NCBI RefSeq assembly: GCF_003018255.1
Contig: NZ_CP027440.1
Direction: 5' to 3' (one strand)
DNA length: 64,000 nt
Source of the DNA: Escherichia coli
Lineage (GTDB): Bacteria > Pseudomonadota > Gammaproteobacteria > Enterobacterales > Enterobacteriaceae
Shown: positions 356-59,665 of the stretch, one piece after another
Position numbering within the stretch: the first letter of the stretch is position 1
Layout: each line of letters begins with the position of its first letter
Notes under the pieces: model-generated
Told to the model about the DNA's origin: nothing
Database searches by the model: none
What the model saw: the letters and a program-made list of their open reading frames with translations, nothing else
Position numbers and translations under genes: made by a program

Positions 356-1688
<1,333 letters not shown>

Positions 1689-2378: not shown

Positions 2379-2425
2379 ACATCTTCCCTTAGCGAAAGGC
2401 CCGGTACAGAGACCGGGCAACAGGA

Positions 2426-3916
2426 TTAACTTTTGGTTTTGACTAAATCGTTTTTGGCGCGGCCAAATGGCACGGCACCGCTAAATGGTTTGCCGTCGAT
2501 AGCGTCATGAGTACGCAATGCTTCCGGGCGCAGCCAACGCTGAACGCGGGAAGGCATATCCAGACCAATCAGCAGGATCACCACAAATGTCAGACTGAAC
2601 GAGAGCGATGCCAGCGCAGTACCCAGATCCAGACGTTGAGCGATCAACGCGCCGATGATTGGGGCCAGTGCACCGCCCAATGCGCCGACGTTGTAGGTAA
2701 AGCCCAGGCCCGCTGCACGCTGGTCGGTATCGAAATAACCGCCAATCAGTTTCGGTAAGATCCCGGCGATCCCTTGTCCAAGCATTTGCTGGAAGAACAG
2801 TAACAGACCGAGCACCCAGACGTTTGCGCCGCCAATCGCAAATACCGGAATAATCAGCAGCTGCGAGGCCAGCAGACTACAAACGTACGCTTTGCGGGTT
2901 CCCAGCCAGTCACCGAGGAAGCCACCGACGCAGCACCCCACCGCCGCGCCAAAGCCACTAAAGAACAGCACATTGGCGACAGTATGCGGGTCATAAGCCA
3001 GATCGGTTTTCAGATACGTTGGCAGCAGCGCCTGAATCGGCCATGAGTAGAGGAAAGCAAACAACACGACCACCATCAGCATTACGCCCGTTGGCCAGCG
3101 TTTGCCCGTACTCTGCACCATAAAGCTGATAAAGATTGCGGCGCATAACAGCCCGAGTACAGCGACGATTGCGGCATTTTGCAGGTTACCGGCGAAGCAG
3201 AACCACAGCGCAGTAGCCGCCGCCAGCGTCATTACGATATTGGCAATGCGATGTTCACCACGGTAAAGAATGTCTACCATCGTGCGTACTGGTGCTTTAC
3301 CCCCGTGTTTCTCTTTCCAGTCTTCCGCTTCCGGGATGTTTTTACGCAGCCAGAGAGCAAAGATGATTGGCAAAATGCCGATAAAGAACAGCGCTCTCCA
3401 GCCCCAGACCGGAACCACCAGACTATAGACCTGAGCGGCAACGACGGCCCCCACAGAGAAGCCTGAAATCAAAAAACCACTGGCTTTGTTACGCAGATGT
3501 TTTGGCCAGCTTTCAATGACATAGGTGGCGCTGGAACCGTATTCACCCGCCATCCCCATGCCGATGACCAGACGCGCGATAAACATGGTGATGTAGCCTG
3601 GCGCAAAGCCGCAGGCCAGCGTCCCGGCCGAGAAGAGAACGATGCTGGTGACCATTGCCAGACGACGCCCGTAGCGGTCACCCATAGCGCCGAGCATCAG
3701 GCCGCCGAACCAGCGAGAGATAAAGGCTGCGGAGATCAGACTTGCCGCCTGCACCGTCGTCAGCCCGAATTCACCCTGTACTTCGGTGAGTACCAGGGCG
3801 ATTAAAACGAAATCAAAACCGTCAAGCAGATATCCCAACCAGGCAGCGGAAAATGCGCGCCATTGTGCACGGTTGAGATGGCGATACCACGGGATATTCT
3901 GGGTTGTAGTACTCAT
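2426..3916 (-). CDS. nanT: Sialic acid transporter (MFS)
   Basis: Trimmed to [14 protein letters not shown]... (496 aa); matches E. coli NanT. Confidence 0.9.
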
Positions 3917-3986
3917 TGTGAGTCTCCCGCGGTGGGCGATGCCCACACGCTTTGGTATGAAAATTGTAGGGTACAGATGCGTTTAT

Positions 3987-4018
3987 TTCCCCTCACCCGG
4001 TAGGGGCGAGCGAGGGGA
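3987..4018. repeat. GC-rich imperfect palindrome TTCCCCTCACCC...GAGCGAGGGGA between nanA and nanT (copy 1 of 2)
   Basis: Inverted arms CCCCTC / GAGGGG read directly; near-identical ends to the element at 21836..21869. Confidence 0.6.
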
Positions 4019-4025
4019 AAACAAC

Positions 4026-4919
4026 TCACCCGCGCTCTTGCATCAACTGCTGGGCCAGCGCCTTCAGTTCTGGCAGATATTTTTCATCTACCGGTCCAAA
4101 CGGTTTGCGGCACAGCGGCACAGAAACGACATCCATATAATGCAGGACAGTTTTCAGGCCGCGGAATACGCCCGTTTTGATCAGTAAATCAATGACTTTG
4201 TTGCACTCAGTTTGCAGTTTCTGCGCGGTCTGGATATCGCCTTCTTTCAGCGCCTTCACGATCCCCTGATATCGCCAGCCCATGATGTTGTAAGTACTGC
4301 CGATACCACCATCAGCGCCTGCCAGCAAGCCGGAAGCGAAGATTTCGTCGTAACCGTTATAGAGCACCAGATCAGGATGTTCACGACGGATCTGTTCCAT
4401 CTGATAGAGATCGCCAGAAGTCTGTTTCAGCGCACCGACGCCAGGCAACGTAACCAGGGTGTTGATCTGATCCAGGGTCAGTTTTACCCCACTCAGGGCT
4501 GGAATGTTGTACACCACCATCGGCAAACCATCCGCCGAATCAATAATTGCCCGATAGTGATCGCAGTGTTCTTCAAAGCTGAAAGGATAGTAGAACGGCG
4601 TGACGGCGGAGACGGCATCGAAGCCATAACGTTTAGCCGATGCCGCAAGTTGTTGGCTTTCGGCGGTGCTGACGCAACCGACGTGGGCGATGAGTTTAAT
4701 CTTACCTTTCGCCTCTTCAGCGACGATTTCCAGTACCTGTTCACGCTCGGAAAGGCTTTGTACAAAGGCTTCGCCGGTAGAACCACCCACGTATAAACCG
4801 TCGATGCCCTGCTGAATATTGAACTGAACCAGGCGACGCAGACTCGCTTTATCCAGTGCTTGTTGTTGATCAAAAGGAGTCAGGAGTGCGGCCATTACGC
4901 CACGTAAATTCGTTGCCAT
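4026..4919 (-). CDS. nanA: N-acetylneuraminate lyase
   Basis: 297-aa ORF matches E. coli NanA ([16 protein letters not shown]...). Confidence 0.95.
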
Positions 4920-5040: not shown

Positions 5041-5832
5041 TTATTTCTTTTTGTTGGTGGTCTGACCGAAGGCGTGCCAGGTAGCAGAGACGCTGTTGAG
5101 ATGCGATTGCAACGCACGATCGGCTTCATCGGGATCGTGGCGGCGGATCGCGTCAACGATCGCAATATGCTGTTGATAGCTAACGTTGTTATGCTCGTGC
5201 AGAGCCTGATCAGCCACGGTTGGACGTGCGGCGATCAGCCAGTCGAGCAAGGCAACGTGGATCGCCATGAAGATTGGGTTACCGGGGATCTCCGCCAGCA
5301 CGCGGTGGAAATCAACGTCTGAACGAATGAATGCCGCGTTGTTATCCAGCGACTGACTGTTGATTTCCAGTGCTTTTGCCAGCAAATCGATTTGCTCATC
5401 GGTGGCGTGTTCAGCCGCATAGCGCACCAGGCTGGATTCAAAGAACAGACGTAATTGTTCGAAATGGGCAATCCCGCCAGGATGAGAAAGGAAATCTTTC
5501 GCCATGCCGGAAAGCTCGCCGATGATGGTGTCCGCAGAAGGACGTGAGACGCGAGCGCGTTCGCCGTTGTTTATCTGCACCAGACCTTTGCGTTTTAACG
5601 CTGCCAGCGCTTCGCGCACCGAAGGACGCCCGACGTTAAAGAACGCCATCAGTTCGCGTTCAGACGGTAATTGTTCACCTTCGCCAAATTCACGACGGCG
5701 GATCATCTGTTCCAGCTCTTCTTCCACCATTTCGGAGAGTTTTTTACGCGCCAGCGGGCGGCTGCGTAAGTTGCGGCCAATTGCAGGTGAAGAATCTTCG
5801 GTTTGCGAATCAAATGCGTTCATAAGGCCCAT
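5041..5832 (-). CDS. nanR: GntR/FadR-family transcriptional repressor of the nan regulon
   Basis: 263-aa ORF matches E. coli NanR. Confidence 0.9.
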
Positions 5833-21835: not shown

Positions 21836-21869
21836 TTCCCCTCACCCTAACCCCAGAGGAGCGAGGGGA
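21836..21869. repeat. GC-rich imperfect palindrome TTCCCCTCACCC...AGCGAGGGGA between the convergent aaeR and tldD (copy 2 of 2)
   Basis: Shares both ends (TTCCCCTCACCC and AGCGAGGGGA) with the element at 3987..4018. Confidence 0.6.
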
Positions 21870-54319: not shown

Positions 54320-54439
54320 ATGTCTGGCAGTTCCCTACTCTCGCATGGGGAGACCCCACACTACCATCGGCGCTACGGCGTTTCACTTCTGAGTTCGGCA
54401 TGGGGTCAGGTGGGACCACCGCGCTACTGCCGCCAGACA
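54320..54439 (-). rRNA. rrfF: 5S rRNA, distal copy of rrnD
   Basis: 120-nt reverse-complement match to E. coli 5S rRNA. Confidence 0.9.
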
Positions 54440-54476
54440 AATTCTTTTCTAATCTGCCGAACTTTAACCTAAAAAG

Positions 54477-54552
54477 TGGTGCTGATACCCAGAGTCGAAC
54501 TGGGGACCTCACCCTTACCAAGGGTGCGCTCTACCAACTGAGCCATATCAGC
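54477..54552 (-). tRNA. thrV: tRNA-Thr (anticodon GGU)
   Basis: 76-nt reverse-complement match to E. coli tRNA-Thr; CCA end present. Confidence 0.9.
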
Positions 54553-54564
54553 ACGCTAAATTTG

Positions 54565-54684
54565 ATGCCTGGCAGTTCCCTACTCTCGCATGGGGAGACC
54601 CCACACTACCATCGGCGCTACGGCGTTTCACTTCTGAGTTCGGCATGGGGTCAGGTGGGACCACCGCGCTAAGGCCGCCAGGCA
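54565..54684 (-). rRNA. rrfD: 5S rRNA, proximal copy of rrnD
   Basis: 120-nt reverse-complement match to E. coli 5S rRNA. Confidence 0.9.
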
Positions 54685-54781
54685 AATTCTGTTTTATCAA
54701 CACGTCTCGTTATGACATGTCGATTTAATCTGTATCAGGCTGAAAATCTTCTCTCATCCGCCAAAACATCTTCGGCGTTGT

Positions 54782-57686
<2,905 letters not shown>

Positions 57687-57860
57687 TCACAACCCGAAGA
57701 TGTTTCACTTCAGAGTTGCGAAAATTTGAGAGACTCACGAACAACTTTCGTTGTTCAGTGTTTCAATTTTCAGCTTGATCCAGATTTTTAAAGAGCAAAA
57801 CTTCGCAGTGAACCTTTGCAGGTACACTCTGAAGTATTTTTTATTTAATCACTACAGAGA

Positions 57861-57936
57861 TGGTGGAGCTATGCGGGATCGAACCGCAGACCTCCTGCGT
57901 GCAAAGCAGGCGCTCTCCCAGCTGAGCTATAGCCCC
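57861..57936 (-). tRNA. alaU: tRNA-Ala (anticodon UGC), spacer tRNA
   Basis: 76-nt reverse-complement match to E. coli tRNA-Ala. Confidence 0.9.
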
Positions 57937-57978
57937 ATAACATGTAGTTAAAACCTCTTCAAATTTGCCGTGCAAATT

Positions 57979-58055
<77 letters not shown>

Positions 58056-58123
58056 GTAGAGGTTTTACTGCTCATTTTCATCAGACAATCTGTGTGAGCA
58101 CTGCAAAGTACGCTTCTTTAAGG

Positions 58124-59665
<1,542 letters not shown>

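What the first reader, a model, noticed from the sequence alone, without database searches (positions are those of the whole stretch)
3987..4018. Intercistronic stem-loop 5 nt after the nanA stop codon, inside the nanATEK transcript
Copy 1 of the palindrome sits between nanA and nanT on the same transcript, where a stable hairpin could act as a partial terminator or 3' exonuclease barrier. That would give nanA message a higher steady-state level than the distal nanT-nanE-nanK-yhcH genes.
Basis: partly seen in the sequence, partly recalled or inferred. Interest (0 to 1): 0.3.

Follow-up and report, generated by a model that had tools for sequence, protein, structure and literature searches.

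The report
BoxC-like RNA hairpin after nanA
The stem-loop just after the E. coli nanA gene is real, looks like a cut-down copy of the known BoxC repeat, and most likely shields the nanA message from degradation at a partly Rho-dependent drop in transcript level; that is an ordinary kind of operon fine-tuning.

Summary
The hairpin is real. It lies on the mRNA-sense (-) strand at window 3986..4020: 14 bp, a 7-nt loop, starting 5 nt after the nanA stop codon. It folds far better than shuffles (z = -6.0), and far better than the opposite strand does (z = -2.0). It is present in 5408 of 5426 complete E. coli genomes, and all 10 Escherichia alleles keep all 14 pairs.

It is not an intrinsic terminator. 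There is no U-tract, no terminator-like hit, and no Term-seq 3' end at the site.

It is built from the sequence blocks of the BoxC/PIT/TMECO repeat but lacks the third block. "Copy 2" (aaeR-tldD) is canonical BoxC no. 14. In other Enterobacteriaceae the same slot holds canonical BoxC arrays, REP/BIME-like palindromes or other hairpins.

Published DirectRNA-seq (Adams 2021) puts a Rho termination region at this junction. Reads fall from 164 (nanA) to 58 (nanT), and only from 205 to 152 with bicyclomycin. The anatomy matches the protective stem-loops of Rho-dependent transcripts (Dar and Sorek 2018): a stable hairpin without U-tract, followed by a C-rich, G-poor linker.

Best reading (confidence about 0.45): the hairpin is a 3'-exonuclease barrier for nanA-only transcripts made by partial Rho termination. 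The main rival is a tolerated repeat relic. I rate it a new member of a known kind, of low to moderate interest.

The parts
4026..4919 (-). nanA coding sequence (N-acetylneuraminate lyase); stop codon UGA at 4028..4026
   Evidence: ORF list. RefSeq annotation of identical or near-identical records.
3986..4020 (-). Hairpin 1, the finding. 5' arm 4020..4007 (UUUCCCCUCGCUCG), loop 4006..4000 (CCCCUAC), 3' arm 3999..3986 (CGGGUGAGGGGAAA). It starts 5 nt after the nanA stop. It is a two-arm palindrome made of BoxC-type blocks.
   Evidence: Sequence. Fold -32 kcal/mol, z -6.0, against z -2.0 for the other strand. All 14 pairs are kept in 10 Escherichia alleles. The relaxed BoxC two-block pattern hits only here and at copy 2.
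3951..3985 (-). Unstructured AU/C-rich, G-poor linker between the two hairpins (UAAACGCAUCUGUACCCUACAAUUUUCAUACCAAA). Candidate Rho loading (rut-like) and endonuclease-accessible segment.
   Evidence: Unpaired in the 131-nt fold. Composition of 3950..3985 is 10 C and 3 G (the G at 3950 belongs to hairpin 2). Local C/G rises to 1.4-2.1 from here into the first ~60 nt of nanT. UUCAUACCAAAG is invariant across Escherichia, Kluyvera, Pseudocitrobacter and Enterobacter sp. kpr-6. The function is inferred.
3929..3950 (-). Hairpin 2 (GCG-U-GUGGGC-AUC-GCCCAC-CGC), immediately 5' of the nanT Shine-Dalgarno sequence
   Evidence: Folds. Covariation across 27 sequences from 11 genera: 98.8% of cells paired, 4 of 6 pairs with changes on both sides, slid controls 27-51%.
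3923..3928 (-). nanT Shine-Dalgarno GGGAGA; the nanT AUG is at 3916..3914
   Evidence: Sequence. GGGAG is nearly invariant in the 27-sequence alignment.
3919..3919 (-). Position equivalent to MG1655 3372577(-), the published peak of a Rho termination region (window-based, coarse resolution)
   Evidence: Adams 2021, Supplementary file 2. Reads -BCM: 164 upstream, 58 downstream. Reads +BCM: 205 and 152. Rho score 2.10, p 6.2e-5. Coordinates mapped through.
2426..3916 (-). nanT coding sequence (sialic acid transporter), the distal gene whose RNA level drops
21838..21867 (-). 'Copy 2' of the palindrome. This is canonical BoxC/TMECO no. 14 of MG1655 (aaeR-tldD intergenic), carrying a 6-nt internal deletion in this strain.
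   Evidence: nhmmer with a profile of the 23 published TMECO copies: E = 1.7e-4. Holder 2015 Table 1. Coordinates verified on NC_000913.3.

Best explanation
Hairpin 1 is an Escherichia-specific, two-arm relative of the BoxC (PIT/TMECO) palindromic repeat, and it acts at the RNA level. It is not itself a terminator.

Proposed mechanism. RNA polymerase transcribes through the hairpin. Downstream, on the untranslated C-rich, G-poor linker and the start of nanT, Rho stops a fraction of transcripts. PNPase and RNase II then trim those transcripts, and any endonucleolytic products, back to the base of the 14-bp stem. This leaves a nanA-only RNA capped by the hairpin. The result is more nanA message than nanT-nanE-nanK-nanQ message.

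Shown: the hairpin, its bias to the mRNA strand, its conservation, its BoxC-type blocks, the lack of terminator features, and the published bicyclomycin-sensitive read drop at the junction.

Inferred: that the hairpin is the exonuclease stop, and that the linker is where Rho loads.
For: (1) The hairpin is stable and strand-specific: z -6.0 on the mRNA strand against -2.0 on the other strand.

(2) It is present in 5408 of 5426 E. coli genomes. Among 80 Escherichia sequences there are 10 alleles. All 140 pair cells stay paired. The 4 variable stem positions are all one-sided wobble-type changes in the 5' arm, the 3' arm is invariant, and the flanks vary freely.

(3) Adams 2021, Supplementary file 2 lists a Rho termination region at MG1655 3372577(-), 3 nt before the nanT AUG. 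Reads are 164 and 58 without bicyclomycin and 205 and 152 with it.

(4) The anatomy matches the class defined by Dar and Sorek 2018. That class has a stable stem-loop, no U-tract, C>G downstream, and trimming by PNPase/RNase II. Here the tail is AAAUAAAC, there is no terminator-like hit, and the 36 nt at 3950..3985 hold 10 C and 3 G with C/G rising to 2.1.

(5) Canonical BoxC hairpins mark non-intrinsic Term-seq 3' ends 4 nt after the stem. Examples are lldD (3781065+, Rho-significant, intrinsic-terminator score 1.3) and the site downstream of ppiC (3959467-).

(6) In the 80 Enterobacteriaceae nanA-nanT gaps plus the window (81 in all), the slot right after the stop codon usually holds some stable palindrome. 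These are canonical BoxC (5 loci), REP/BIME-like motifs (about 49) or other hairpins. The upstream part of the gap has median fold z -2.5, and 46 of 81 have z < -2.
Against: No curated Term-seq 3' end lies at the predicted position (about MG1655 3372640-) in LB or M63 glucose. The nan operon is repressed in those media, so this is weak negative evidence.

The Rho call rests on low read counts, 800-nt windows and one experiment. It was never validated for nan.

Only 2 of the 18 coordinate windows searched around canonical BoxC copies had a 3' end.

The within-Escherichia changes are one-sided only. With transitions alone, the chance that all 4 preserve pairing is about 0.1 (my estimate).

Trabulsiella manages with a 32-33 nt gap and no hairpin, so the hairpin is dispensable.

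Palindromic repeats also accumulate in gene 3' flanks for selfish or neutral reasons.
Confidence: 0.45

Rival explanations
1. Neutral relic. The hairpin is a decayed BoxC-type repeat that landed, or was left after an internal deletion, in a permissive intercistronic gap. It has no measurable effect on nan expression. The Rho-dependent drop would occur without it.
For: BoxC/TMECO loci are hot spots of intergenic deletion, and no function has been found for them (PMC4666352). Copy 2 in this same window carries a 6-nt deletion relative to K-12. The slot holds unrelated repeat families in different genera and nothing in Trabulsiella. There are no two-sided compensatory changes within Escherichia.
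Against: The two wobble pairs make the stem good only on the mRNA strand. All four stem polymorphisms keep pairing, while the adjacent spacer and tail vary. Related BoxC hairpins do coincide with RNA 3' ends in vivo.
Confidence: 0.3
2. Translation-termination brake. The stem starts 5 nt after the stop codon, so the terminating ribosome must melt its base. By analogy with REP elements lying within 15 nt of a stop codon, this would stall ribosomes, trigger cleavage and trans-translation, and lower NanA output. This effect is opposite to the reader's idea. It could coexist with the barrier role.
For: The stop-to-stem distance is 5 nt, or 4 nt in the K-12 allele. The rule that REPs fewer than 16 nt from a stop codon down-regulate translation is reported in PMC12306157, citing Liang et al. 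2015. In 66 of the 77 gaps that hold a strong domain (81 gaps examined), that domain starts within 15 nt of the stop, median 5 nt.
Against: The first pairs to be opened are three weak U-A pairs; the G-C core starts 8 nt after the stop. The rule was shown for REP elements, not for this hairpin. nanA is reported to be induced up to 1000-fold and to be needed at high level (PMC3658417), which sits poorly with a built-in brake.
Confidence: 0.1
3. Intrinsic (Rho-independent) partial terminator. The hairpin itself makes RNA polymerase release a fraction of transcripts.
For: It is a G+C-rich 14-bp stem-loop in a transcribed gap, and RNA falls across the junction.
Against: There is no U-tract: the tail is AAAUAAACGC, and the U-run lies on the wrong (5') side and is paired. 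The consensus scan finds no terminator-like site. No Term-seq 3' end is listed. [quoted passage not shown] Bicyclomycin relieves about half of the drop.
Confidence: 0.04
4. DNA-level element: an intrastrand triplex, a replication or recombination hot spot, or a protein-binding palindrome, as proposed for BoxC/TMECO.
For: It shares BoxC blocks. TMECO oligonucleotides form triplexes in vitro (PMC4666352).
Against: The triplex needs three blocks and this element has two; the full consensus gives 0 matches. Triplex formation was not seen in vivo even for canonical copies. As DNA, or as + strand RNA, the palindrome has two C-A mismatches.
Confidence: 0.03

Closest known systems
Protective 3' stem-loops of Rho-dependent transcripts (Dar and Sorek 2018, NAR; PMC6061677)
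   Same: Stable stem-loop with no following U-tract and no upstream A-tract. C-over-G bias just downstream. A bicyclomycin-sensitive read-through signal at the locus.
   Different: Those were mapped mostly at transcript ends; this one lies inside an operon between two co-transcribed genes. The defining steady-state 3' end at the stem base has not been seen for nan.
REP/BIME intercistronic elements (malE-malF-type mRNA stabilisers; BIME-associated Rho-dependent attenuation, Espeli 2001)
   Same: A palindromic repeat between co-transcribed genes, expected to block 3'-5' exonucleases, and associated with Rho-dependent attenuation. In my rough motif classification of about 49 loci, including Salmonella, Citrobacter and Enterobacter, REP/BIME-like palindromes occupy this very slot.
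   Different: The sequence is not REP: there is no GCCGGATG / CCGGC-type motif. It is a single copy of its exact form in each genome.
BoxC / PIT / TMECO repeat (Holder 2015, NAR; PMC4666352; 23 copies in MG1655)
   Same: It uses the same CCCTC(N)C and GGG(N)GAGGG blocks, in the same orientation as copy 2, which is TMECO no. 14. Its location is intergenic. Canonical BoxC elements occupy the homologous site in Pseudocitrobacter, Kluyvera and Enterobacter sp. kpr-6.
   Different: It has only two arms, so it fails the three-block consensus and cannot form the triplex. The profile match is not significant (E 3.6 in the window). It is not among the 23 listed copies. The stem pairs in a shifted register, giving 14 bp instead of about 9-10.
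Intrinsic terminators
   Same: G+C-rich stem-loop downstream of a stop codon.
   Different: No U-tract, no mapped 3' end, and Rho dependence of the drop.

Membership tests
Intrinsic (Rho-independent) terminator | G+C-rich stem-loop | tested here: met
   14 bp, of which 8 are G-C pairs.
Intrinsic (Rho-independent) terminator | Run of U immediately 3' of the stem | tested here: not met
   The tail is AAAUAAACGC. There is no terminator-like site at the hairpin on either strand.
Intrinsic (Rho-independent) terminator | RNA 3' ends at the site that do not depend on Rho | tested here: not met
   No curated Term-seq 3' end in 33725xx-33727xx. The read drop is bicyclomycin-sensitive. Caveat: the growth conditions were non-inducing.
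BoxC / PIT / TMECO repeat | Three-block consensus CCCTCNCCC-N3-6-GGGNGAGGG-N3-GGGNGAGGG | tested here: not met
   0 matches in the window. The element has one C-block region and one G-block.
BoxC / PIT / TMECO repeat | Significant match to a profile of the 23 MG1655 copies | tested here: inconclusive
   It is the second-best hit in the window, but at E = 3.6 and 4.4 bits; copy 2 scores E = 1.7e-4. The relaxed two-block pattern hits only these two sites, with 0 expected.
BoxC / PIT / TMECO repeat | Intergenic location; canonical copies at the homologous site in related genomes | tested here: met
   Canonical BoxC, single, as inverted pairs or in 5-copy arrays, lies in the nanA-nanT gap of L009, L012, L049, L011 and L025 (E 3e-10 to 4e-3). 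Their 3' flanks are homologous to that of E. coli.
REP/BIME | REP consensus palindrome (GCCGGATG...CCGGC type) | tested here: not met
   The motif is absent from the Escherichia gap but present in about 49 other genera or species at this site.
Protective stem-loop of a Rho-dependent terminator (Dar and Sorek class) | Stable stem-loop without U-tract, with C>G downstream | tested here: met
Protective stem-loop of a Rho-dependent terminator (Dar and Sorek class) | Bicyclomycin-sensitive read-through downstream | tested here: met
   Published table row: 3372577(-), Rho score 2.10, p 6.2e-5. It comes from a single experiment with low counts.
Protective stem-loop of a Rho-dependent terminator (Dar and Sorek class) | Precise steady-state 3' end just after the stem | tested here: inconclusive
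   Not in the Adams Term-seq lists, but nan is repressed in those media. Two canonical BoxC hairpins do show such ends.
Protective stem-loop of a Rho-dependent terminator (Dar and Sorek class) | Transcript extension in pnp / rnb mutants | not testable with these tools
   Needs raw RNA-seq of exonuclease mutants; the supplements of PMC6061677 are not held.
Stop-codon-proximal stem-loops that down-regulate translation (Liang 2015 rule for REPs) | Stable stem-loop within 15 nt of the stop codon | tested here: met
   5 nt in the window allele and 4 nt in K-12. The rule is as cited in PMC12306157.
Stop-codon-proximal stem-loops that down-regulate translation (Liang 2015 rule for REPs) | Ribosome stalling, mRNA cleavage, tmRNA tagging | not testable with these tools
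   No ribosome-profiling or tagging data are available here.

The most novel reading that the evidence does not exclude
The nanA-nanT gap is a conserved intra-operon Rho attenuator. Its 'protective hairpin' slot has been refilled repeatedly during enterobacterial evolution by interchangeable palindromic repeats: REP/BIME, canonical BoxC arrays, the two-arm BoxC derivative of Escherichia, and unique hairpins. Under this reading BoxC, whose function has been unknown for 30 years, would act at the RNA level as a 3'-end-defining, exonuclease-blocking cassette.
Probability: 0.2. Interest if true: 0.5.

Novelty: new member of a known kind. Interest (0 to 1): 0.3.

Why it matters
If the model holds, the hairpin helps set the ratio of the soluble lyase NanA to the membrane transporter NanT and the downstream enzymes. 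These proteins form a colonisation-relevant sialic-acid pathway.

It would also give an RNA-level role to BoxC-type repeats, whose function is unknown.

The locus could serve as a compact natural test bed. The same slot is filled by different repeat families in different genera and is empty in Trabulsiella. That would allow a test of whether dispersed palindromic repeats are interchangeable 3'-end protectors at Rho-dependent attenuators.

If instead the hairpin is a relic, the finding is ordinary.

Tried and rejected
- Rfam gathering scan of the whole window: nothing at the site, only rRNA, tRNA, 5S and StyR-44.
- MG1655 RefSeq annotation: no repeat or regulatory feature in the nanA-nanT or aaeR-tldD gaps.
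- blastn of the 47-nt hairpin against 5426 E. coli genomes: median one place per genome, so it is not a high-identity dispersed repeat.
- Literature searches for nanA/nanT with stem-loop, Rho-dependent, sialoregulon and similar terms: no paper discusses this hairpin or a nanA-nanT attenuator. One search for a BoxC review returned nothing.
- Papers or supplements not held: Kalivoda 2003, Liang 2015, and the supplements of Dar and Sorek, Conway, Melamed and RepRanger.
- Intrinsic terminator reading: rejected.
- Internal promoter for nanT in the gap: no promoter-like hit on the - strand.
- RNase III substrate: considered unlikely, because the perfect helix is only 14 bp and the outer extension overlaps translated nanA codons (inference).
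- Two-sided covariation in hairpin 1: none found within Escherichia.
- Twelve BoxC coordinate windows had no 3' ends, and the 36087 hits were unrelated coordinates.

Full report
1. THE OBSERVATION

The window is E. coli chromosome. The sialic-acid operon lies on the - strand: nanQ 356..820, nanK, nanE, nanT 2426..3916, nanA 4026..4919 and nanR 5041..5832. The nanA-nanT gap is 109 nt here and 108 nt in K-12, which has one T fewer before the stem.

Five nt after the nanA UGA the mRNA-sense strand reads UUUCCCCUCGCUCG-CCCCUAC-CGGGUGAGGGGAAA, at window 4020..3986. RNAfold gives a 14-bp stem that includes a G-U and a U-G pair. A 56-nt context folds at -32 kcal/mol, the structure takes 0.88 of the ensemble, z = -6.0, and none of 200 shuffles fold as well. 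The arm pattern occurs once in the window against 0.02 expected.

2. THE STRUCTURE IS AN RNA-STRAND FEATURE

The same stretch read as + strand RNA folds only to -20 kcal/mol, z = -2.0. The two wobble pairs become C-A mismatches on that strand. The structure is therefore good only in the sense of the nan transcript.

3. IT IS NOT AN INTRINSIC TERMINATOR

The stem is followed by AAAUAAACGC. The U-run lies on the 5' side and is part of the stem. A consensus scan finds no terminator-like site at the hairpin on either strand and no promoter-like site for nanT in the gap. Rfam has nothing there, and MG1655 carries no annotation there.

4. WHAT KIND OF SEQUENCE IT IS

Copy 2 (window 21838..21867, between the convergent genes aaeR and tldD) is canonical BoxC. 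BoxC is also called PIT or TMECO. This copy is no. 14 of the 23 listed for MG1655 by Holder et al. 2015, at 3390494..3390529. In the window's strain it carries a 6-nt internal deletion.

A profile built from the 23 published copies finds copy 2 at E = 1.7e-4. It finds the nan hairpin as the next-best hit in the window, but not significantly (E = 3.6). The full three-block consensus has no match in the window. A relaxed two-block pattern (CCCTCNC...GGGNGAGGG) matches exactly these two sites, both on the - strand, with none expected by chance.

So the nan hairpin is made of BoxC blocks: CCCCTCG/CTCGCCCC, then TACC, then GGGTGAGGGG. It lacks the third block and is not among the 23 canonical copies. 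It fails BoxC membership as defined and cannot form the proposed triplex. It is best described as a two-arm BoxC-like palindrome. It may be a deletion derivative, since deletions at BoxC loci are documented. That origin is an inference.

5. COMPARATIVE EVIDENCE

I fetched 80 nanA loci from as many species-level genomes of Enterobacteriaceae. In all of them nanT follows nanA, across gaps of 32 to 403 nt.

What fills the slot after the nanA stop:
- The Escherichia hairpin is confined to Escherichia: E. coli, E. albertii, E. whittamii and unnamed clades.
- Pseudocitrobacter (an inverted pair and a 5-copy array), Enterobacter sp. kpr-6 (an inverted pair) and Kluyvera (one copy) have canonical BoxC at the homologous position, with nhmmer E from 3e-10 to 4e-3. 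Their 3' flank (UUCAUACCAAAG, then hairpin 2, then the Shine-Dalgarno) is homologous to that of E. coli.
- About 49 loci carry REP/BIME-like palindromes. These include Salmonella, Citrobacter, Enterobacter and Lelliottia. This count comes from a permissive motif search and is approximate.
- Raoultella, Edwardsiella, Buttiauxella and others have other hairpins.
- Two Trabulsiella genomes have only 32-33 nt and no hairpin.

How structured the gaps are:
- 77 of the 81 gaps contain a domain of -10 kcal/mol or better. In 66 of those 77 it begins within 15 nt of the stop, median 5 nt.
- Against dinucleotide shuffles, the upstream part of the gap has a median z of -2.5. 46 of 81 have z < -2 and 32 of 81 have z < -3.

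This pattern fits two readings: selection for some hairpin at this position, or a permissive landing pad for palindromic repeats. It does not decide between them.

6. VARIATION WITHIN ESCHERICHIA

The 61-nt stretch is present at >=95% identity in 5408 of 5426 complete E. coli genomes. From 74 metagenomic contigs plus the genome loci I collected 80 sequences with 10 alleles.

All 14 pairs are standard in every allele (140 of 140 cells). Four pairs vary, always on the 5' arm and always by a pair-preserving change: C-G to U-G twice, G-U to A-U once, and U-G to C-G once. The 3' arm is invariant. The 4-5 nt spacer and the tail vary in length and sequence.

There are no two-sided compensations. With transitions alone, the chance that four changes all preserve pairing is roughly 0.1 (my estimate). 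This is suggestive, not proof.

7. EXPERIMENTAL DATA IN THE LITERATURE

Adams et al. 2021 (eLife; MG1655; coordinates as in NC_000913.3, checked) is the main source.
- The curated Term-seq lists, which were stored uncut, contain a 3' end inside nanA (3373531-, 45 nt into the ORF) and one inside nanR. They contain none at the nanA-nanT junction. The media were LB and M63 glucose, in which nan is repressed.
- The table of Rho termination regions has a row at 3372577(-), class "orphan", 3 nt upstream of the nanT AUG. Reads in 800-nt windows are 164 upstream and 58 downstream without bicyclomycin, and 205 and 152 with it. The Rho score is 2.10 and p = 6.2e-5.

So nanA-region RNA exceeds nanT-region RNA about 2.8-fold, and about half of the drop is relieved by inhibiting Rho. 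This row has not been discussed in any paper I could find.

8. HOW THIS FITS A KNOWN CLASS

Dar and Sorek 2018 showed that Rho-dependent transcripts end, at steady state, immediately after stable stem-loops. Those stem-loops lack a U-tract and an upstream A-tract and are followed by C>G sequence. The ends arise by PNPase/RNase II trimming back from diffuse termination sites. Only 24% of such stem-loops are annotated REPs.

The nan gap has this anatomy. Hairpin 1 is followed by an unpaired linker; the 36 nt at 3950..3985 hold 10 C and 3 G. C/G rises to 2.1 over the first codons of nanT.

For the BoxC family, earlier work found no promoter or terminator activity (Hoyne and Maher, as reported). 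I searched 18 coordinate windows around canonical BoxC copies. In two of them the Adams Term-seq lists hold 3' ends exactly 4 nt after the BoxC stem:
- lldD at 3781065(+), with a significant Rho score and an intrinsic-terminator score of 1.3.
- 3959467(-), downstream of ppiC.

The other windows had none. BoxC-type RNA hairpins can therefore define non-intrinsic 3' ends in vivo.

9. MOST LIKELY MECHANISM (confidence about 0.45)

Transcription passes the hairpin. Rho terminates a fraction of transcripts on the untranslated gap or early nanT. Exonucleases trim back to the hairpin, which caps a nanA-only RNA. NanA message thereby exceeds the distal message.

Shown: the structure, its strand bias, its conservation, the absence of terminator features, and the published bicyclomycin-sensitive drop.

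Inferred: that the hairpin is the exonuclease stop, and that the linker is the Rho loading site.

Rivals:
- A tolerated repeat relic (0.3).
- A translation-termination brake, by analogy with REPs lying fewer than 16 nt from a stop codon (0.1). This could coexist with the barrier role.
- An intrinsic terminator (0.04).
- A DNA-level role (0.03).

10. NOVELTY AND SCORE

The specific hairpin and the nanA-nanT Rho signal appear undescribed. The kind of element is well known: a protective stem-loop or repeat-derived intercistronic hairpin at a Rho-dependent attenuator. I rate it a new member of a known kind, with interest 0.3.

The most novel reading not excluded is functional turnover of interchangeable repeat "hairpin cassettes" at a conserved attenuator, which would give BoxC an RNA-level role. 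I put its probability at 0.2 and its interest, if true, at 0.5.

Noticed in passing
window 3929..3950 (- strand), just 5' of the nanT Shine-Dalgarno at 3923..3928: A second hairpin (GCG-U-GUGGGC-AUC-GCCCAC-CGC) is conserved with compensatory changes across 11 genera. 98.8% of cells are paired, 4 of 6 pairs change on both sides, and slid controls give 27-51%. It is replaced by AAAAAUCGUCGGGAGAG in the Citrobacter, Salmonella and Enterobacter lineages. Its function is unknown. It might be a 5' stabiliser of the nanT segment or a control on nanT translation.
   Followed up: partly
window 2399..2418 (- strand), nanT-nanE gap (2379..2425): A third intercistronic hairpin, GCCCGGU-CUCUGU-ACCGGGC, lies 7 nt after the nanT stop and is followed by CUUUCG. 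It is conserved in the gaps of about 45-50 nt found in many genera, and its stem sequences vary while pairing is kept. Other genera have gaps of 1-9 nt and no hairpin.
   Followed up: partly
window 21838..21867 (aaeR-tldD intergenic): Canonical BoxC/TMECO no. 14 carries a 6-nt internal deletion (one GGGTGA repeat unit) relative to K-12 MG1655. This fits the reported instability of these elements.
   Followed up: partly
window about 4874 (- strand) = MG1655 3373531, 45 nt into nanA: Published Term-seq lists a strong 3' end inside the nanA ORF, 45 nt from the start codon, with Rho score 1.79 (not significant) and intrinsic-terminator score 1.08. This suggests premature termination or processing early in nanA under non-inducing conditions.
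   Followed up: no
window about 5014 (- strand) = MG1655 3373671, nanR-nanA gap: The Rho table of Adams 2021 also lists a termination region just after nanR. Reads are 186 and 136 without bicyclomycin and 171 and 276 with it, Rho score 2.2. Read-through from nanR into nanA is therefore limited by Rho.
   Followed up: no
L012 3394..3800 (Pseudocitrobacter vendiensis nanA-nanT gap): This 403-nt gap holds five BoxC copies: one in the opposite orientation, followed by four copies in two repeats of a unit of about 146 nt. It is an unusually expanded BoxC array inside an operon.
   Followed up: no
window 54322..59665 (- strand): An rRNA operon with two 5S genes, three tRNAs and a StyR-44 Rfam hit in the 16S-23S spacer region. 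This looks ordinary for E. coli rrnD.
   Followed up: no
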